Positions 1 to 42,748 of a DNA stretch of 42,748 nt are shown in pieces (the stretch's first letter is position 1; each line of letters opens with the position of its first letter). This stretch comes from a virus (Duplodnaviria; Heunggongvirae; Uroviricota; Caudoviricetes). The position numbers were made by a program, and so were the translations under genes. Below the pieces are notes generated by a model. The model was given only the letters and a program-made list of their open reading frames with translations, was not told the origin of the DNA and did no database searches. The DNA lies in IMG/VR virus record IMGVR_UViG_2695420651_000024; one strand, given 5' to 3'.

Positions 1-332
1 CCGCCAACAGGCTGGCTGAAATGCAACGGTGCGGCTTTTTCTGCTGAAGAATACCCGGAACTGGCAAAGGCTTACCCGACCAATAAATTGCCTGATTTAC
101 GCGGTGAATTTATTCGTGGCTGGGATGACGGTCGCGGGATTGATACTGGTCGCGCTTTGCTTAATTGGCAGCCACACACAATTTTGGACCATGCACACTA
201 TATGGAATTATGGACAGGGGACGGACTCGCCGCAGGAAGTGCACGGGAAGGAGTAAACCCAGGAATACTGGCTACATACGGTGACGGGGGAATAGTTAAA
301 ACGGACGAACCCGGTCTTAATGTGCCTTCCTC
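1..332. repeat. Inverted repeat, left copy (reverse complement of 3185..3516); runs to the window edge so the true length is unknown
   Basis: Bases 1..36 are the exact reverse complement of 3481..3516. The 75-aa shadow ORFs 29..256(+) and 3261..3488(-) are identical. Identity ends after ggtcttaatgtgccttcc at 332/3185. Confidence 0.85.
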
Positions 333-384
333 ACTACGAGCTCTCGTAGTGTTAAACGTTATGGTGAAATTAGTGAAAATGTAG
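1..384 (+). CDS. Tail fibre protein, C-terminal tail-collar domain (5' end outside window)
   Basis: Frame open from base 1: [48 protein letters not shown]...HTILDHAHY, identical to the C-terminal part of the 3160..3933 fibre. Followed by a tfa gene. Confidence 0.6.
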   Translation, partial: PPTGWLKCNGAAFSAEEYPELAKAYPTNKLPDLRGEFIRGWDDGRGIDTGRALLNWQPHTILDHAHYMELWTGDGLAAGSAREGVNPGILATYGDGGIVKTDEPGLNVPSSLRALVVLNVMVKLVKM

Positions 385-436
385 GTACAGAAACTCGTCC
401 TCGTAACATCGCTTTTAATTATATCGTAAGGGCCGC

Positions 437-1042
437 ATGATGAATAAAGCTGTATTAAATAGCGAACTCATCACCACAAAGGCGGGAGACATTACCGTTT
501 ACAATTATGATGGTGAGACACGGGAATATATTTCCACATCAACTGAATATCTTGCTGTGGGTGTCGGTATCCCGGCATGTTCCTGTTTAGATGCTCCTGG
601 CTCATATAAAGCTGGTTATGCAATTTGCCGTTCTGCAGATTTTAACTCATGGGAATATGTGCCAGACCATCGCGGTGAAACGGTCTATAGCACTGAAACA
701 GGAGAATCAAAAGAAATCACAGCTCCGGGTGATTACCCTGAAAATACAACCACTATCGCTCCATTAACGCCATACGATAAATGGGATGGTGAGAAATGGG
801 TGACCGATACTGAGGCACAGCATAGCGCAGCAGTCGAAGCGGCAGAAGCACAGCGTCAGTCACTGATTGATGCTGCAATGGCTTCCATTAGTCTGATTCA
901 ACTGAAATTACAGGCCGGGCGGAAGCTGACGCAGGCAGAAACAACCCGGCTTAACGCTGTGCTGGATTACATTGACGCGGTGACTGCAACAGATACCAGC
1001 ACCGCGCCGGATGTCATCTGGCCTGAACTGCCGGAGGCGTAG
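437..1042 (+). CDS. tfa: Tail fibre assembly protein (Tfa)
   Basis: 201 aa; typical Tfa C-terminus ...TAPDVIWPELPEA; directly downstream of the fibre gene. Confidence 0.75.
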   Translation: MMNKAVLNSELITTKAGDITVYNYDGETREYISTSTEYLAVGVGIPACSCLDAPGSYKAGYAICRSADFNSWEYVPDHRGETVYSTETGESKEITAPGDYPENTTTIAPLTPYDKWDGEKWVTDTEAQHSAAVEAAEAQRQSLIDAAMASISLIQLKLQAGRKLTQAETTRLNAVLDYIDAVTATDTSTAPDVIWPELPEA

Positions 1043-1433
1043 GCCATTCAATATCTGGAGCACTGGAGATATCAACCAGTTCCAGTGCGTCCAGATAATC
1101 CAGCCATAAATTATATTGTTCCAGCTCGTCACCTTTCAGACGACCAATAGCGGCTTTACCAGGCCATTGCCTGCTATTCATGTGCTCGTTGGCTTCATTA
1201 ATAAGTTTTCCTTTTTTCAACTCTGCCAATGCAATAAGGTTTTCTTTTGATAAAGGTGGTTGCTCTGTCAAAACCGGATATCCCTCCTGATTGCTGACTA
1301 TTTTCATGCCATTATCCTGACCATCCAGTAGTGACAGCCATTCATCCGTGGTTATCTCAACAGCATCTGAAGGTGCTTTATTTAAATCGGTAAAAAAACC
1401 ATTTTCTTTTTGTGAATAGAAGTATCTGTCCAT
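1014..1433 (-). CDS. Alternative tail fibre assembly protein (Tfa') of the invertible cassette
   Basis: 139 aa; C-terminal SSAPDIEWPTPP motif; convergent with tfa and overlapping its 3' end, as in e14 tfaP/tfaE and Mu U/U'. Confidence 0.7.
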   Translation of the reverse strand: MDRYFYSQKENGFFTDLNKAPSDAVEITTDEWLSLLDGQDNGMKIVSNQEGYPVLTEQPPLSKENLIALAELKKGKLINEANEHMNSRQWPGKAAIGRLKGDELEQYNLWLDYLDALELVDISSAPDIEWPTPPAVQAR

Positions 1434-1436
1434 TTA

Positions 1437-1784
1437 TCAATCTCCAAAAGCAATCCAGTAAGCAAAAGGATTTACTCCTTGCTCAGTCACAGATGACATC
1501 AGGGAAAATTGCGATGGTGAAACAGGTAATGCTGCAAAACTAACCATTGTTGACACACCTGACCGTGCATTATCGTACGATGCAACAACACAATAATTGG
1601 TATTGCTGAAAGATATCGGCAGGGTGATATTTACAGGTGAGCCTAATGGCCCTGATGCTGATATTCCCATTTGAATGATGGTTCCATCAGGCAATTTTCT
1701 CCAGCGATTAGAACTCGGATTTCTTTTCCAGGCTGACATATCCGGTATCTGATTTTCTCCTGTACCCACATCCCTTTTCGCCGC
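1437..1784 (-). CDS. Promoterless alternative tail-fibre C-terminal segment (Sv'-like), expressed only after inversion
   Basis: Open frame (track ORF 1437..1838) with no plausible own start; it begins at the crossover site next to the invertase, the arrangement seen in Mu G / e14 P segments. Confidence 0.5.
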   Translation of the reverse strand, partial: AAKRDVGTGENQIPDMSAWKRNPSSNRWRKLPDGTIIQMGISASGPLGSPVNITLPISFSNTNYCVVASYDNARSGVSTMVSFAALPVSPSQFSLMSSVTEQGVNPFAYWIAFGD

Positions 1785-1810
1785 TTCTCCCAAACCAACG
1801 TTTATGAAAA
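1785..1810. other. Putative Pin/Gin/Hin-type inversion crossover site
   Basis: TTCTCCCAAACCAACGTTTATGAAAA matches the hix/gix/pix pattern TTnnnnAAAACCnnGGTTTnnnnAA at most core positions; lies between the Sv' segment and the invertase gene. Confidence 0.45.
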
Positions 1811-1865
1811 TGCAGAGATAACGGGCAACTGGCATCATCTCCGGTTTTTATTCAGGGGATCCATC

Positions 1866-2419
1866 ATGCTTATTGGCTATGTACGCGTATCAACAAATGA
1901 CCAGAACACCGATCTGCAACGTAATGCACTGAACTGCGCGGGATGTGAGCGGTTTTTTGAGGATAAAATCAGTGGCACTAAGTCCGACAGACCGGGGCTT
2001 AAAAAACTGCTCAGGACACTATCGGCAGGAGACACTCTGGTTGTCTGGAAGCTGGACAGGTTGGGGCGCAGTATGCGGCATCTTGTTACGCTGATAGAAG
2101 AGTTGCGTCAGCGTGGCGTGAATTTCCGAAGCCTGACTGACAGTATTGATACCAGCACCCCAATGGCCGTTTCTTTTTTCATGTCATGGGTGCCCTGGCT
2201 GAAATGGAGCGTGAACTGATTGTTGAACGAACAAAAGCTGGACTGGAAGCTGCTCGCGCACAGGGACGAATTGGCGGTCGCCGTCCCAAACTTTCATCAG
2301 AACAATGGGCGCAGGCCGGGCGACTAATTGCATCAGGCGTTCCTCGCCAGAATGTGGAGATCATCTATGATGTTGGCGTATCGACTTTGTATAAGAAGTT
2401 TCCGGTCGGAGATAAATGA
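1866..2419 (+). pseudogene. pin: Serine DNA invertase (Pin/Gin/Hin family) disrupted by a frameshift
   Basis: N-terminal MLIGYVRVSTNDQNTDLQRNAL...VVWKLDRLGRSM (catalytic Ser region) in one frame (1866..2219); C-terminal GALAEMERELIVERTKAG...GRIGGRRPKL...YDVGVSTLYKK in the next frame (2186..2419). The switch is at about 2163..2170, within ccaatggccgtttc. Confidence 0.8.
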
Positions 2420-2499
2420 AACCGTAGCACGTCGTATGCAAGAACGTGCCACGGCTGGCTGATAAGCTTGTAAAAATATTGAACAGGGAGTGGAGCATT

Positions 2500-3147
2500 C
2501 TATGAAGCTAATTTGTTTAATTTCATTTGTAGTGACTTTACTTCTTGGTCGATAATGTCGAATCCCTTATTGACAGCATCTCTTAGCTCTGCATCAATAT
2601 TTTTTATCCCTTGAGCATAATCTACCATTACATTTATTTTTGCATCATGTAATCTCTTATACATGGTTTTATCTTTGTTATTGTCTGCCATGCCAATAAG
2701 GATTTTTTCATAATCCTCAATGAGTTTGTTGTTTCCTTTAAATGATTGTATTAATGAGCGTGAATATGTGTATATGTTAATTATTGAGTCTCTAGCAGAA
2801 TCATTTAGTTTTGCAATGACATTCGCATTTTGCTCATAGAATGTGAAATTATCATCCCCTACAGGGAATGTGAGAATCAACATTTGTCCCGGTTTTATAT
2901 TATCAATGTGTGTTTTCATCCTTTTATTATATAAATTGATTAGGGTGAAAACTTCTCCCTTAACTCCTTTTAATACTGAAAGTTGTAATTCAAGGGATTC
3001 TCTTTCTGTCTCTACTTTAGACAGCTTAGCTTGTTGGGTAACTCCTTTTAGGGTAAACCATCCGCCAATAAGAGTACCAACTAGAGCTGTGAGGGAGGAG
3101 GATAACCATCCAGGTATGCTATTTAAAAGATTACTAAATTCACTCAT
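2500..3147 (-). CDS. Hypothetical membrane-anchored coiled-coil protein on a low-GC insert
   Basis: 215 aa; one N-terminal TM helix (LLNSIPGWLSSSLTALVGTLIGGWFTL) then K/E/N-rich helical region; DNA visibly AT-rich compared with flanks; sits where a tfa gene would normally follow the fibre gene. Confidence 0.5.
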   Translation of the reverse strand: MSEFSNLLNSIPGWLSSSLTALVGTLIGGWFTLKGVTQQAKLSKVETERESLELQLSVLKGVKGEVFTLINLYNKRMKTHIDNIKPGQMLILTFPVGDDNFTFYEQNANVIAKLNDSARDSIINIYTYSRSLIQSFKGNNKLIEDYEKILIGMADNNKDKTMYKRLHDAKINVMVDYAQGIKNIDAELRDAVNKGFDIIDQEVKSLQMKLNKLAS

Positions 3148-3159
3148 TATAAGTACTCG

Positions 3160-3933
3160 CTAATATTGAACGATATATATATCAGAGGAAGGCACATTAA
3201 GACCGGGTTCGTCCGTTTTAACTATTCCCCCGTCACCGTATGTAGCCAGTATTCCTGGGTTTACTCCTTCCCGTGCACTTCCTGCGGCGAGTCCGTCCCC
3301 TGTCCATAATTCCATATAGTGTGCATGGTCCAAAATTGTGTGTGGCTGCCAATTAAGCAAAGCGCGACCAGTATCAATCCCGCGACCGTCATCCCAGCCA
3401 CGAATAAATTCACCGCGTAAATCAGGCAATTTATTGGTCGGGTAAGCCTTTGCCAGTTCCGGGTATTCTTCAGCAGAAAAAGCCGCACCGTTGCATTTCA
3501 GCCAGCCTGTTGGCGGTGTGACTGAAGGCCACGGAACAGGCACACCAACAGGTAATGCAGAACCTTCTCCCAAACCAAGGTTTTCGAGAGCCGTTTGCAC
3601 AGTGCCATCCGATTTGATATCGCCAAACGGATTCTTGCGGCTCAGGTATTCAACAGCAAACCCCGATCCCAGCAATTCAACAAAACCGGGCAGATCACCA
3701 TTATCAAGCACATCCCGTTGCGTTTTGTCACTTACAAACTGGGCCAGAGCTGCAGCAATAAAGCTGGCCTGTCGAATGGCTTTGTTCACCTGCGCACTGG
3801 ATGCTTTCCCTGCTGTAAATCCGGATAAAAGCGCAGGCAACGCTTCCCATTCCTCCTGCGACATAACATTGGCATTTCGATCAGTTGCAAACGCTTTAAA
3901 GTCATTTTTCGCCATCAGAGTAATACTCCCCAT
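3160..3933 (-). CDS. Tail fibre protein with tail-collar C-terminal domain
   Basis: 257 aa; last gene of the baseplate operon; C-terminal ~110 aa identical to the left-edge fibre fragment (inverted repeat). Confidence 0.7.
3185..3516. repeat. Inverted repeat, right copy (reverse complement of 1..332)
   Basis: See left copy; the identical sequence encodes the C-terminal domain of the 3160..3933 fibre. Confidence 0.85.
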
Positions 3934-4595
3934 GCTCCTACATCAAAACCACTGATGAATTCGTTATCCATATCAAAACCAAAAAATTTTGAGCCTTCCG
4001 ATGGGGTTTCCACCGAAGGAGTTTCAATGCCCCCCGCCCATACCCCGGCGGCTTTTACTGTGAGATACCCCTGTTTAATTGCCGCAATTAACTCACGCGA
4101 TACATCTGAAATATCAGTATCAGGAAAGACCCAGACCGATATCGTCATGTCCTGGTTATCGACTATCTGCATTCGCAGCCCGGATCCTGCTGTTGCCGCG
4201 TCAAGAATTGCCGGAAGCGAATCATTCCGTCCGTCCCAGTTATTAATCGCAATCTTCGCTTTAAGGATGACACGATAAGTTTCATCGCTGAGGTACATGT
4301 ATCCGGAATCAGGATCGTATGGTCCCTGCCATACACCCTGATCATATCCAAGCCCGTCGGTATCCCAGCTGAAATAAACACCTGAGATAGGCTGGCTGAC
4401 AACACGGCTACGTCCGATCCACAATCCCAGAATGTCAAGTTGCACACCAACCGCAGAGTCAATATCAAATGCAGTAATCAGCCCTCTGGTGGCCGCCGCA
4501 ACATCAATAAGCGGCCGGGTCATCAGATCAACATGTGCAAGAAATTTAGGTTTGGTGGCGTGGTAGTTCGTGATTAGTTCGGTGTATTTGCTCAT
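3915..4595 (-). CDS. Baseplate/tail-fibre-proximal protein (Mu gp48-like, DUF2313-type)
   Basis: 226 aa; immediately upstream of the fibre and downstream of the baseplate J-like gene; family assignment from memory. Confidence 0.5.
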
Positions 4596-5791
4596 GACTC
4601 CACCGTTATAACGATATTTTCCGGGGTACAGGACGCAGATTCGTTGTATCTGATATCAATGTTTGATGACGACAAAGCCCCCGGAGATTTCCCAATCGTC
4701 AGTTCCTGAATATCGTAATAGCGTGCATTCCCGCCACTCACCACGCCAAGATTCGCCGGTGAGTAAATGCGACTTAAAAGGACCGAATCACCAATCATCA
4801 GACTATTGATATAGTCGGAAATAGCCTGCTGGATCTGCTGCCCTATCTGTGAGGTATAACCCGTAAAAACTTTTAATTTAATCCGGGCATAAACAGGCAC
4901 ATCACTGGAACGCGAGAATTTGATTACATGGGGATTGCCGTATTTATCCGGAACCGTAACGGATGTTGTACCGTGAGTGGCTGTCCCCTGGCCTTTATTC
5001 CCTCTGATAGCCTGAGCAATATCCATCACATCACCGCCATCCACAATTACAGCAACAGAGTGTGGCGGTAACCCGTTACCGTCCTCCGAACCAGTATCGT
5101 TTTCATAGAGTTTGTGGCGGGTTACACCGGTAACATTAGAAACAGCACCATCCAGTGCTTCAAATGGGGTTATTGATGGCAACGCAACACTTTGCGACTG
5201 GCGGATACGTAACTCCGCATCAGTTTCTGCCGGAGAGCCAACAGTAGCCGCAGCAGGATTAGTTACCGAAACCCAGCCACGGGTTGGCGTATTAATTTCA
5301 GTGATAGTTCCAGCCAGCGCCGCCACTGCACCACTGACGGAACATGTTGCGGTCGCCATCACTGTACCATCCACGCCGACCACCACTGAAGCAGGCAAAC
5401 GCCATATCACACTATTACTGTCTTTCACGCTGCCATTAATGATGGTTGTTCCGGCAGTTCCTGTAAGAAGCAAATCAACCGTAGAATTCGTCGCGCCTTT
5501 ACGTGAAATACCATTTATTTTCACGTTACTGGTCAGTGCGGCCCCATAGCCGGTTGCCGGTGAAAAACAGTTGTAGACAGTTATCGCAGTATTATTGGCA
5601 TCATGAATCGCCAGCGCCATCAGAGCCACCATCTGGCCGTCTTTACTATCCGGTTCGAGGTAGGCATCACTGCCATAAATCTGCTGAAAATAGCTAATCA
5701 GGGTGCTGAGTATCGTCTGATAATCAGGCGCACTGATCCCCTCCGCGGTTACCTTTGCAGATAAACCGAGAGAATCAAGGTTCAGAGCCAT
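4592..5791 (-). CDS. Baseplate J-like protein (Mu gp47-like)
   Basis: 399 aa; position and size in a conserved gp45-46-47-48 order. Confidence 0.6.
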   Translation of the reverse strand: MALNLDSLGLSAKVTAEGISAPDYQTILSTLISYFQQIYGSDAYLEPDSKDGQMVALMALAIHDANNTAITVYNCFSPATGYGAALTSNVKINGISRKGATNSTVDLLLTGTAGTTIINGSVKDSNSVIWRLPASVVVGVDGTVMATATCSVSGAVAALAGTITEINTPTRGWVSVTNPAAATVGSPAETDAELRIRQSQSVALPSITPFEALDGAVSNVTGVTRHKLYENDTGSEDGNGLPPHSVAVIVDGGDVMDIAQAIRGNKGQGTATHGTTSVTVPDKYGNPHVIKFSRSSDVPVYARIKLKVFTGYTSQIGQQIQQAISDYINSLMIGDSVLLSRIYSPANLGVVSGGNARYYDIQELTIGKSPGALSSSNIDIRYNESASCTPENIVITVES

Positions 5792-6144
5792 TACGCCTCC
5801 GATTTAACAGTCGTTATTCCATAGAGAGTGTCGATTTCAGCGGAAAACATGACACGTCGGGTCGTGGTATCCACCGTCGTATTGAAAGAGAGGATTGATT
5901 TAACGCCCCGCGTTTCGAGGATGCGCTTACGGATCGCCAGGTTGTAGGTTTCCGGCTTCTGCTTACCGAGCACAGACTGGATCCACGGGGTCCCTTCGGT
6001 GGTGTCGAGAAACCATTGCCCATACCACAATTCAAATCGCGTTTTTACCGCCTGCGCCACGGCCTCCGGTGAGTTAATCAGCCAGGTGTCATCACCGCTG
6101 CCAAAGGTGTAATCGCCATCGGCGTCTTCACGTCTGTATCGCAT
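5791..6144 (-). CDS. Baseplate protein, GpW/gp25-like (Mu gp46-like)
   Basis: 117 aa; start overlaps the stop of the upstream gene; conserved position. Confidence 0.5.
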   Translation of the reverse strand: MRYRREDADGDYTFGSGDDTWLINSPEAVAQAVKTRFELWYGQWFLDTTEGTPWIQSVLGKQKPETYNLAIRKRILETRGVKSILSFNTTVDTTTRRVMFSAEIDTLYGITTVKSEA

Positions 6145-6896
6145 CAGTTTACCCTATCGGTATTGCTTCCACCGCGCTGAACACCGCCATGAGTGTGCGT
6201 ATCATCGATTGGCTTGCCGTTAGCCTTCACGCTCCCCAAAAACTCAACAGCACCAGTGATTTTTGAAGCCACACCAGAAACCACAGACCCCACCATGCCC
6301 CCCATCCAGGTTAACAGGCCATGAATGGTTACTTTCTCAGAAAAATCAGCCAGAGGGGCAACCACATCAAGACCACCCGGAGCGACAATTTTAATTTTCC
6401 TGGTATCAGGATTAAGCTCAAAATAGGTGCTGCCGTCATCACTACGCAACTGTGTGGCACTGGTATTAATACCGCTAATCCTCCTTGCCTGCGACTGGGG
6501 ACCGACAATACAAAACGCATCCGATAAATCATGCATTCTGTCATCGACCGTCTCCTGTATCCCGCCACTCTGCCACCAGAAATCGATGCAGCGATCGGCA
6601 AAAATCACCAGGCATTCATCGCCGGCTTTTACCGGGAAAGTTAACGTGCAGCCGCCGCCGCGCGGAAATACCACCGGCACATCCACCAGCAGCGGGTAAT
6701 TTTTGGTTACGCGGTTGCCGTCGTTGTCGGTTTCAACCGAACGAATAGCAGGCTGCACAACCGCCGTCACCGCGTCAGGATCGAATGACTGAACGATGCC
6801 AGGCAAAGCGACGCGGATCTGGTTCTTTGTGGTTTCCCGCTCGGATTTGAATGTTTCGGCAAGGTCGCCGCTACGAGTCTGGTCTGATATGGCCAT
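6144..6896 (-). CDS. Baseplate spike/assembly protein (Mu gp45-like)
   Basis: Start taken at the internal ATG at 6896, which has AGGAG 7 nt upstream (product MAISDQTRSGD...); PGIVQSFDP...VVFP...GDECLVIF...RCIDFWW resembles the gp45/gp138 N-terminal domain. Confidence 0.6.
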   Translation of the reverse strand: MAISDQTRSGDLAETFKSERETTKNQIRVALPGIVQSFDPDAVTAVVQPAIRSVETDNDGNRVTKNYPLLVDVPVVFPRGGGCTLTFPVKAGDECLVIFADRCIDFWWQSGGIQETVDDRMHDLSDAFCIVGPQSQARRISGINTSATQLRSDDGSTYFELNPDTRKIKIVAPGGLDVVAPLADFSEKVTIHGLLTWMGGMVGSVVSGVASKITGAVEFLGSVKANGKPIDDTHTHGGVQRGGSNTDRVN

Positions 6897-6910
6897 TTGA
6901 TAAACTCCTG

Positions 6911-6938
6911 AAAACAAAAAACCCGCCAAGTGGCGGGT
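6911..6938 (-). terminator. Rho-independent terminator closing the baseplate moron operon
   Basis: Minus strand reads ACCCGCC-ACTT-GGCGGGT followed by TTTTTGTTTT, immediately upstream of the RBS of the gp45-like gene. Confidence 0.6.
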
Positions 6939-6958
6939 CTACAGGAACAACTCTAAGT

Positions 6959-7129
6959 TTATTTTTTCTGTTTAAAATTGTCCAACTCAGGTTCTTTAAC
7001 GCTTTCTGTCATGTAATCCAATCCACCAAAAGGTACTTCAAGCATTATACTGCTTTCATAATCAGCCATGGATTGCTCTGCTTGCGTTGGCTTGCTTTGC
7101 TGTGAGTTGTCATTATTTGATGTTGTCAT
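6959..7129 (-). CDS. Small acidic hypothetical protein (56 aa), translationally coupled to the membrane protein gene
   Basis: Hand translation: MTTSNNDNSQQSKPTQAEQSMADYESSIMLEVPFGGLDYMTESVKEPELDNFKQKK; ATG 3 nt after the upstream TAG; below the 60-aa track cutoff. Confidence 0.35.
   Translation of the reverse strand: MTTSNNDNSQQSKPTQAEQSMADYESSIMLEVPFGGLDYMTESVKEPELDNFKQKK

Positions 7130-42478: not shown

Positions 42479-42748
<270 letters not shown>

What the first reader, a model, noticed from the sequence alone, without database searches (positions are those of the whole stretch)
437..1838. e14/Mu-G-type invertible tail-fibre cassette with an identifiable 26-bp crossover site
The order fibre tip(+), tfa(+), tfa'(-), promoterless fibre tip(-), invertase(+) is the classic Sv-U / U'-Sv' arrangement. 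TTCTCCCAAACCAACGTTTATGAAAA (1785..1810) fits the hix/gix/pix pattern and sits at the 5' end of the promoterless tip. The partner site should lie at the constant/variable junction of the fibre gene, which is outside the window.
Basis: partly seen in the sequence, partly recalled or inferred. Interest (0 to 1): 0.4.

Follow-up and report, generated by a model that had tools for sequence, protein, structure and literature searches.

The report
Decayed, rearranged e14-type tail-fibre inversion switch

Summary
The cassette is real and is an ordinary e14/Pin-type tail-fibre switch in a yfhL-integrated E. coli prophage. The 26-mer at 1785-1810 is identical to the pinE-proximal site of e14.

Three things were missed:
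- The fibre's constant part is inside the window, to the right on the minus strand (3591-3933). It carries a second site (3565-3590) identical to e14's other site, but in direct orientation to the first.
- The invertase is a pseudogene, with a 1-nt deletion at 2165/2166 shared with 14 complete genomes.
- The window is not collinear with any relative. Compared with O103:H2 strain 12009, window 1-3184 is an inverted copy joined at 3184|3185 to the rest, giving a perfect 332-bp inverted repeat that runs to the window edge.

The breakpoint sits at the base of a hairpin in tip A. The other tip A copy has a private 7-nt deletion in that hairpin. Neither anomaly occurs in 5,426 complete E. coli genomes. 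As a result the expressed fibre is truncated, and only tip B with its chaperone is intact.

Near-identical prophages with the same dead invertase occur in both orientations (9 vs 6 genomes), so another invertase must act in trans. The kind is already known; the rearrangement may be real or a misassembly. Low interest.

The parts
1..440 (+). Tip A (Collar-domain receptor-binding tip). It is cut at its 5' end by the window edge. A private 7-nt deletion at 338/339 shifts the frame, so the reading frame stops at 384 instead of 440.
   Evidence: Collar domain in the identical copy; no complete E. coli genome has the 7-nt deletion
1..332 (.). Left arm of a perfect 332-bp inverted repeat. Its partner is 3185-3516. 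The arm reaches the window edge, so its true length is unknown.
   Evidence: I1, 100%; the only long repeat in the whole window
332..351 (+). Hairpin-forming quasi-palindrome in tip A (ACTACGAG-CT-CTCGTAGT). Relatives have a 9-nt loop here. The rearrangement breakpoint (332|333 equivalent) lies at the base of its stem, and the 7-nt deletion lies in its loop.
   Evidence: z about -4 in both versions
437..1042 (+). tfaA, the tail-fibre assembly chaperone for tip A. It is 94% identical in protein sequence to e14 TfaE.
1014..1433 (-). tfaB, the tail-fibre assembly chaperone for tip B. It is 55% identical in protein sequence to e14 TfaP.
1437..1838 (-). Tip B (Gp53-like_C). This is the silent alternative tip and the only intact tip in the window.
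   Evidence: It is fused to the constant part as a 232-aa fibre in relatives in the other orientation.
1785..1810 (+). Crossover site s2: TTCTCCCAAACC-AA-CGTTTATGAAAA. The tip-side half is 1785-1796, the central AA is 1797-1798, and the invertase-side half is 1799-1810.
   Evidence: identical to e14 L013 5606-5631. The centre corresponds to the crossover point annotated in P1 cix.
1866..2419 (+). pin invertase pseudogene. Catalytic Ser10 is present, but a 1-nt deletion in the G run at 2165-2166 splits the gene into ORFs of 117 aa and 77 aa.
   Evidence: annotated 'frameshifted' in RefSeq relatives
1884..1955 (+). Stretch that aligns to the annotated Cin recombinational enhancer (nt 19-90 of the gene). 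It is 89% identical to pinE and 76% to cin. Function is inferred from position only.
2500..3147 (-). hyp215, a 215-aa cargo gene with low GC (33%) and no known family. It travels with pin in all relatives.
3184..3185 (.). Novel junction. The hyp215 upstream region (37 nt before its ATG) is joined to the middle of tip A. This is not a crossover site and shows no microhomology.
   Evidence: absent from 5,426 complete E. coli genomes and from viral, genome and metagenome contig collections
3160..3933 (-). Expressed fibre gene: constant N-terminal part (3591-3933), site s3, and truncated tip A. It encodes 257 aa. The last 37 aa of the canonical 281-aa fibre are replaced by DIYIVQY, and no tfa gene follows.
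   Evidence: this exact protein is not on record
3565..3590 (+). Crossover site s3: TTCTCCCAAACC-AA-GGTTTTCGAGAG, at the constant/variable junction. It is directly repeated with s2, 1780 bp away.
   Evidence: D2; identical to e14 L013 3779-3804; the 80 nt around it are 100% identical to e14 stfP
3915..5791 (-). DUF2612 wedge protein (3915-4595) and baseplate J (4592-5791). These are the late-operon genes that read into the fibre gene.

Best explanation
This is the tail-fibre host-range switch of a roughly 42.6-kb myovirus-like prophage integrated in yfhL. It is homologous to the P segment of E. coli K-12 prophage e14.

How the intact version works: a Pin-family serine invertase recombines two 26-bp sites in inverted orientation. 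One site lies at the constant/variable junction of the fibre gene and the other lies next to the invertase gene. Recombination flips about 1.87 kb, so the constant N-terminus is fused either to tip A with chaperone TfaA or to tip B with chaperone TfaB.

This copy is degenerate in three ways:
- The invertase carries a 1-nt frameshift. Any inversion therefore needs a Pin-like invertase from another prophage acting in trans.
- A private event has inverted a 3.2-kb block (hyp215, pin, site, tip B, tfaB, tfaA, 3' part of tip A). The block is bounded by an inverted duplication of at least 332 bp of tip A. One breakpoint lies at the base of a hairpin in tip A, and a 7-nt deletion lies in that same hairpin in the other copy.
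- As a result the expressed fibre is truncated and has no chaperone gene downstream. Both tip A copies are defective, and the two sites visible in the window are direct repeats, which Pin-family invertases recombine poorly.

Shown here: gene content, site identity, frameshift, breakpoints, and orientation polymorphism among relatives. Inferred: the recombination chemistry, the enhancer, action in trans, and a replication template-switch at the hairpin as the origin of the rearrangement.
For: Gene content:
- Pfam families match a fibre switch.

Sites:
- Both sites are identical to the two e14 sites. In e14, 2011C-4251 and 12009 the sites are inverted; in the window they are direct.

Homology to e14:
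- TfaA is 94% identical to TfaE. The pin gene is 85-86% identical in DNA, and the two fragments are 88-90% identical in protein, to PinE.

Canonical layout in relatives:
- The order is baseplate J, DUF2612, constant part-site-tip, tfa, tfa', tip', site, pin, hyp215.

Evidence that inversion happens:
- Among complete genomes with 100% identical junctions, 9 have pin-site-tip A and 6 have pin-site-tip B.
- L004 and L005 are the two states of another allele set. They show the C/T polymorphism at position 1 of the site exchanged between the two sites, as expected for crossover in the site centre.

Frameshift and action in trans:
- The frameshift is shared by carriers in both orientations.
- Each of the 14 complete genomes with this allele has 2-7 pin-like loci.
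- Inversion of the e14 segment in trans by PinQ has been shown experimentally (PMC12529663).

Rearrangement:
- The window equals the reverse complement of L010 5964-9154 followed by L010 8823 onwards. The only difference within these blocks is the 7-nt deletion.
- The hairpin folds significantly better than shuffled sequence.
- The rest of the window differs from 12009 by only 27 SNPs and 1 single-base indel in 39.5 kb, so the sequence is of high quality.
Against: - The junction 3184|3185 and the 7-nt deletion occur in none of 5,426 complete E. coli genomes, nor in the viral, genome or metagenome contig collections. They rest on this one sequence and could be a misassembly.
- The left arm of the inverted repeat stops at the window edge, which is where assemblers produce fold-back artefacts.
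- No read data are available.
- Enhancer function and action in trans are inferred, not tested for this prophage.
Confidence: 0.85

Rival explanations
1. The rearrangement is an assembly artefact. The source genome has the canonical 12009-like order, and the contig end folds back on itself. The switch itself is still real but unremarkable.
For: - The inverted-repeat arm ends exactly at window position 1.
- The window's right end is exactly the end of the yfhL coding sequence. The left end is in frame with tip A, as expected for a provirus cut at a contig edge.
- The junction is unique to this sequence.
Against: - A junction k-mer and a 7-nt deletion must both be present in reads to be assembled.
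- The two private anomalies lie within 17 nt of each other at one hairpin, which points to a single molecular event.
- The rest of the contig is near-perfect.
- Heterogeneity in segment orientation cannot create this junction, because neither breakpoint is at a crossover site.
Confidence: 0.3
2. This is a real three-site system. A 1,780-bp tandem duplication of hyp215-pin-site-5' tip A (L001 4553-6332) created a second invertase-side site. Two Pin-type inversions then shuffled the pieces into the order seen.

This model predicts that left of the window lie 48 nt of tip A, an inverted site s1, and a second pin/hyp215 copy. Tip A with the deletion, truncated tip A and tip B could then each be brought to the constant part by inversion. 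The invertase gene would sit inside the large invertible segment, as hin does in Salmonella.
For: - The s2-s3 interval is exactly 1,780 bp and is a circular permutation of a stretch that is contiguous in 2011C-4251.
- The model needs only one illegitimate junction plus site-specific inversions that demonstrably occur in this lineage.
- A natural three-repeat tail-fibre shufflon is known in an EPEC P2-like prophage (PMC4272514).
Against: - The predicted s1 and second pin copy are outside the window and unseen.
- A short-read contig could not run through a two-copy 1.4-kb hyp215-pin block.
- The model does not by itself explain the 7-nt deletion.
Confidence: 0.2
3. This is a real inversion with an inverted duplication and no third site. 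A template switch or staggered break at the tip A hairpin inverted the 3.2-kb block and duplicated about 332 bp. The switch is then frozen. Only the two direct sites remain, and their recombination would delete pin-hyp215-truncated tip A and restore a constant part-tip B-tfaB fibre.
For: - The breakpoint lies at the base of the hairpin stem, with a loop deletion in the other copy.
- The window starts exactly where the repeat ends and in the tip A reading frame.
- Replication-based models produce inverted repeats at short palindromes (PMC4689423).
Against: - The second junction, left of position 1, is not observed.
- There is no microhomology at 3184|3185.
- Such events are rare in bacteria and have not been seen in any relative.
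Confidence: 0.3
4. One reading: an intact, self-sufficient classic cassette whose fibre constant region and partner site lie to the left of the window.
For: - The local gene order at 1-2419 looks like Sv-U/U'-Sv'-gin.
Against: - The constant part, with the baseplate operon reading into it, is at 3591-5791 on the minus strand.
- pin is frameshifted.
- Tip A is frameshifted.
- In every relative the tip A-side site abuts pin.
Confidence: 0.03

Closest known systems
P segment / PinE system of cryptic prophage e14, E. coli K-12 (stfP-tfaP-tfaE-stfE-pinE)
   Same: - Both 26-bp crossover sites are identical.
- The 80 nt around the constant-side site are 100% identical.
- TfaA is 94% identical to TfaE. 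Tip A's N-terminal part is 86-87% identical to StfE, and pin DNA is 85-86% identical.
- The logic is the same: alternative tip plus chaperone pairs.
   Different: - Tip B and TfaB are divergent (about 30% and 55%).
- The cargo gene next to pin is hyp215 instead of mcrA.
- The host phage is a different, apparently complete yfhL-integrated prophage.
- Here pin is a pseudogene, the sites in the window are direct, and pin lies between them.
Mu G segment / Gin and P1 C segment / Cin
   Same: - The same Sc-site-Sv-U-U'-Sv'-site-invertase plan is seen in canonical relatives.
- The invertase DNA is 65-71% identical.
- The site centre coincides with the annotated P1 crossover point.
   Different: - The sites differ from s3 at 6 of 26 (cix) and 8 of 26 (gix) positions.
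- The tips are unrelated in sequence.
Multi-site inversion systems: p15B Min, and the three-repeat tail-fibre shufflon of an EPEC E2348/69 P2-like prophage (PMC4272514)
   Same: If a third site exists left of the window, three sites would offer three alternative C-termini for one fibre, as in the EPEC locus.
   Different: - Here the extra site would come from a recent duplication.
- Two of the three tips are defective and the invertase is dead.
- The third site is not observed.
Hin / H segment of Salmonella, with Fin acting in trans
   Same: - Under the three-site reading the invertase gene lies inside the invertible segment, as hin does.
- Pin-family enzymes complement each other in trans (established knowledge; PinQ on e14).
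   Different: Hin controls a flagellin promoter, not a fibre C-terminus.

Membership tests
Hin/Gin/Cin/Pin DNA-invertase switch | Small serine recombinase with an N-terminal Resolvase catalytic domain (Ser10) and a C-terminal HTH_7 domain, encoded as one intact reading frame | tested here: not met
   Both domains are recognisable, but they are split over two ORFs by a 1-nt deletion at 2165/2166. RefSeq annotates the identical allele as frameshifted. There is no other invertase in the window.
Hin/Gin/Cin/Pin DNA-invertase switch | 26-bp crossover sites made of two 12-bp imperfect inverted half-sites around a 2-bp core | tested here: met
   Sites 1785-1810 and 3565-3590 are identical to the two e14 sites and align with gix and cix. 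The centre coincides with the annotated P1 crossover point. The 26-mer has 0 hits expected by chance.
Hin/Gin/Cin/Pin DNA-invertase switch | Two sites in inverted orientation flanking the invertible segment | tested here: inconclusive
   The two sites in the window are direct repeats 1,780 bp apart. An inverted partner is predicted 48-73 nt beyond the left edge if the repeat continues, but it is not visible. Canonical relatives do have inverted sites.
Hin/Gin/Cin/Pin DNA-invertase switch | Fis-dependent recombinational enhancer in cis, within the 5' part of the invertase gene | tested here: inconclusive
   Window 1884-1955 aligns to the annotated cin enhancer. It is 76% identical to cin and 89% to pinE, higher than the rest of the gene. 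Fis binding is not testable with these tools.
Hin/Gin/Cin/Pin DNA-invertase switch | The segment actually inverts (both orientations are found) | tested here: met
   This is met for the prophage family: 9 versus 6 complete genomes with 100% identical junctions in opposite states, and a half-site polymorphism exchanged between L004 and L005. It was not testable for the source strain itself.
e14 P-segment-type tail-fibre cassette | Constant fibre N-terminus plus two alternative tips, each with its own Caudo_TAP chaperone, in head-to-head order | tested here: met
   However, both tip A copies are truncated or frameshifted in this window.

The most novel reading that the evidence does not exclude
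The rearrangement is real. A single replication accident at a hairpin inside the tip A coding sequence duplicated or inverted part of a Pin cassette. This left the invertase pseudogene and its cargo gene between two directly repeated pix sites and, if a third site lies just left of the window, converted a two-state switch into a three-site shufflon driven only by invertases from other prophages. That would be a caught-in-the-act example of how multi-site inversion systems such as Min or the EPEC three-repeat locus arise from simple ones.
Probability: 0.25. Interest if true: 0.3.

Novelty: already known. Interest (0 to 1): 0.15.

Why it matters
There is little new biology. The cassette is a close homologue of the e14 P segment described in 1985, and RefSeq annotates it (pinE, tfaE) in hundreds of genomes. 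Three modest points are useful:
- It documents that a prophage whose own invertase is dead still flips in nature, which implies cross-talk between Pin-family invertases of co-resident prophages. This is consistent with the recent PinQ/e14 work.
- The private hairpin-associated rearrangement, if real, shows one route by which such switches decay or gain sites.
- For annotation, the fibre gene of this prophage copy should be called truncated, so the prophage is probably adsorption-defective.

Tried and rejected
- I looked for the source contig or any other carrier of the 3184|3185 junction. An exact 39-mer search in viral, genome and metagenome contigs found nothing. A megablast of a 600-bp junction probe against 5,426 complete E. 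coli genomes gave no spanning hit. An exact-protein look-up of the 257-aa chimeric fibre found it not on record. The sequence left of the window therefore could not be recovered.
- I tested whether the 7-nt deletion is a common polymorphism unrelated to the junction. It is not: no complete genome has it.
- I tested whether the junction could be produced by Pin recombination alone. This is rejected, because neither breakpoint is at a site.
- I tested whether mixed segment orientation alone could explain the contig. This is rejected for the same reason.
- The promoter/terminator scan of 1-4200 was uninformative, with counts at shuffle level.
- hyp215 gave no hit in Pfam, PADLOC, PHROGs or PDB sequences. 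I ran no further search on it, because it is peripheral to the finding.
- I found no second invertase or further crossover-like site elsewhere in the window.

Full report
**Observation**

- Tip A runs from the window edge to 440 (+).
- tfaA is 437-1042 (+), tfaB is 1014-1433 (-), and tip B is 1437-1838 (-).
- A resolvase-type gene is at 1866-2419 (+).
- Pfam assigns Collar to tip A, Caudo_TAP to both Tfa proteins, Gp53-like_C to tip B, and Resolvase plus HTH_7 to the invertase.
- PHROGs calls both fibre pieces tail fibre.
- The 26-mer TTCTCCCAAACCAACGTTTATGAAAA is at 1785-1810. It is unique at up to 3 mismatches, with none expected by chance.

- A second site, TTCTCCCAAACCAAGGTTTTCGAGAG, lies at 3565-3590 on the same strand. 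The two sites are therefore direct repeats 1,780 bp apart.
- This second site sits at the constant/variable junction of a fibre gene on the minus strand (3160-3933). That gene is preceded by DUF2612 wedge and baseplate J genes (3915-5791), so the phage late operon reads right to left into it.
- The constant part of the fibre is therefore to the right of the invertase, not left of the window.
- Positions 1-332 are a 100% inverted copy of 3185-3516. This is the only long repeat in the 42.7-kb window.
- The invertase frame is broken into ORFs of 117 aa and 77 aa.

**Context**

The window is an E. coli prophage integrated in yfhL.
- Its right end is exactly the end of the yfhL coding sequence in relatives.
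- Over window 3185-42748 it differs from O103:H2 strain 12009 by only 27 substitutions and one single-base indel. The sequence is therefore of high quality.
- In relatives the order is always: baseplate J, DUF2612, constant part-site-tip, tfa, tfa', tip', site, pin, hyp215, prophage end.

**Comparison with known systems**

- Both sites are identical to the two sites of e14 in K-12 MG1655. In e14, as in strains 2011C-4251 and 12009, the sites are inverted relative to each other.
- Site s3 differs at 6 of 26 positions from P1 cix and at 8 of 26 from Mu gix.
- The centre of the 26-mer coincides with the crossover point annotated in the P1 record.
- TfaA is 94% identical to TfaE, and tip A's N-terminal part is 86-87% identical to StfE.
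- TfaB is 55% identical to TfaP.
- pin DNA is 85-86% identical to pinE, 65% to gin and 68% to cin.
- The stretch aligned to the annotated cin enhancer (window 1884-1955) is better conserved than the rest of the gene.
- The e14 P segment and its repeat CCTTCTCCCAAACCAA are described in PMC12529663 and PMC4272514.

The family assignment 'e14/Pin-type' is correct, and the system is already known.

**The invertase is dead, yet the segment flips**

- The window's pin lacks one G of the GGG run at 2165-2166. This truncates the protein after residue about 100, before helix E and the HTH.
- The same deletion is present in L001, L002, L003, L008, L010 and L011 and is annotated 'frameshifted' by RefSeq.
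- Among complete genomes whose junctions are 100% identical, nine have pin-site-tip A and six have pin-site-tip B. O103:H2 strains 129 and 12009 are in opposite states.
- Inversion has therefore occurred since the frameshift.
- Each of the 14 complete genomes with this allele has 2-7 pin-like loci.
- Inversion of the e14 segment in trans by PinQ of prophage Qin is experimentally established.
- A second allele set with an intact pin (L004, L005) shows the two states with a C/T polymorphism at site position 1 exchanged between the two sites. This is the footprint of crossover in the site centre.

**The rearrangement**

- Against strain 12009 the left 7 kb of the window resolves into just two blocks.
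  - Window 1-3184 is the reverse complement of L010 5964-9154, and its only difference is a 7-nt deletion.
  - Window 3185-7000 is L010 8823-12638 at 100% identity.
- The 332 bp shared by the two blocks is the inverted repeat.
- The junction 3184|3185 joins a point 37 nt upstream of the hyp215 start codon to the middle of tip A. Neither breakpoint is at a crossover site.
- The tip A breakpoint lies at the base of the stem of a hairpin, ACTACGAG-CTATTAGCT-CTCGTAGT. Its z-score is about -4.
- The 7-nt deletion in the other tip A copy removes part of that hairpin's loop, 6 nt from the breakpoint position.
- No complete E. coli genome has the junction or the deletion.
- The junction 39-mer is absent from the viral, genome and metagenome contig collections.
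- The chimeric fibre protein is not on record.

**Consequences of the rearrangement**

- The expressed fibre is 257 aa. It lacks the last 37 residues of the canonical 281-aa protein, including the conserved ...TRPRNIAFNYIVRAA end. It is followed by hyp215 rather than a chaperone gene.
- The full-length tip A copy is frameshifted.
- Only tip B with tfaB is intact.
- Within the window no inversion is possible, because the two sites are direct repeats.
- Recombination between the two direct sites would delete pin-hyp215-truncated tip A and regenerate a constant part-tip B-tfaB fibre. From established knowledge of the family, however, Pin-type invertases strongly disfavour direct repeats.

**How the structure may have arisen (inference)**

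Two private lesions at one hairpin argue for a single event, most simply replication stalling and template switching. Three scenarios fit the visible sequence and differ only in what lies left of position 1.
- Scenario (i): a 1,780-bp tandem duplication of hyp215-pin-site-5' tip A, followed by two Pin-type inversions.
  - The s2-s3 interval is exactly a circular permutation of a stretch that is contiguous in 2011C-4251.
  - This predicts a third, inverted site 48-73 nt left of the window and a second pin/hyp215 copy.
  - The result would be a three-site shufflon like the EPEC P2-like locus.
- Scenario (ii): an inversion with a roughly 332-bp inverted duplication and no third site, which would freeze the switch.
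- Scenario (iii): a fold-back misassembly at a contig end.

Scenario (iii) is weakened by the need for both anomalies to be present in reads and by the otherwise near-perfect sequence. It cannot be excluded without reads.

**Verdict**

- The architectural inference (constant region and partner site to the left, a working classic cassette) is not correct.
- The system is an already known kind, and here it is a decaying copy.
- The only unusual element is a private rearrangement of uncertain reality.
- Interest is low.

Noticed in passing
window 2500-3147 (-): hyp215 is a 215-aa protein with a hydrophobic N-terminus and 33% GC, against 50% for the window. It has no hit in Pfam, PADLOC, PHROGs or PDB sequences. 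It always sits beside pin at the prophage end, where e14 carries the restriction gene mcrA. The exact protein is listed in 5,846 blocks of the collection. It is a candidate moron, exclusion or defence gene of unknown function.
   Followed up: partly
window 19168-19941 (-): The window has an intact 257-aa ORF where strain 12009 has a 'phage minor head protein' annotated as frameshifted. The single-base indel at window 19614 is the only indel between the two prophages outside the cassette. The head module may therefore be intact here although the fibre is not.
   Followed up: partly
L004/L005 sites (L004 7338-7363 and 9178-9203; L005 the same coordinates): In a related prophage allele with an intact pin, a C/T difference at position 1 of the 26-bp site is found on the fibre-side site in one orientation state and on the pin-side site in the other. 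This is a natural marker that places the crossover between position 1 and the far half-site.
   Followed up: yes
window 42488-42748 and L001 ~4000-4066: The prophage is integrated in the ferredoxin gene yfhL. An intact yfhL lies at the integrase end, and a 5' yfhL remnant ([16 protein letters not shown]...) lies at the cassette end in relatives. The window ends exactly at the yfhL stop, and window position 1 is in frame with tip A. This suggests the window is a provirus call that reaches a contig edge.
   Followed up: partly
window 42680-42682: Three consecutive substitutions (CAA here, GCG in 12009) lie inside yfhL near the attachment region. They may mark the att core boundary or a recombination tract.
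   Followed up: no
L001 4265-4531 (absent from the window): Relatives carry an 88-aa ORF with no Pfam family between the yfhL remnant and hyp215. The window's rearrangement breakpoint lies 22 nt after its stop, so this gene and the prophage end are missing from the window.
   Followed up: no
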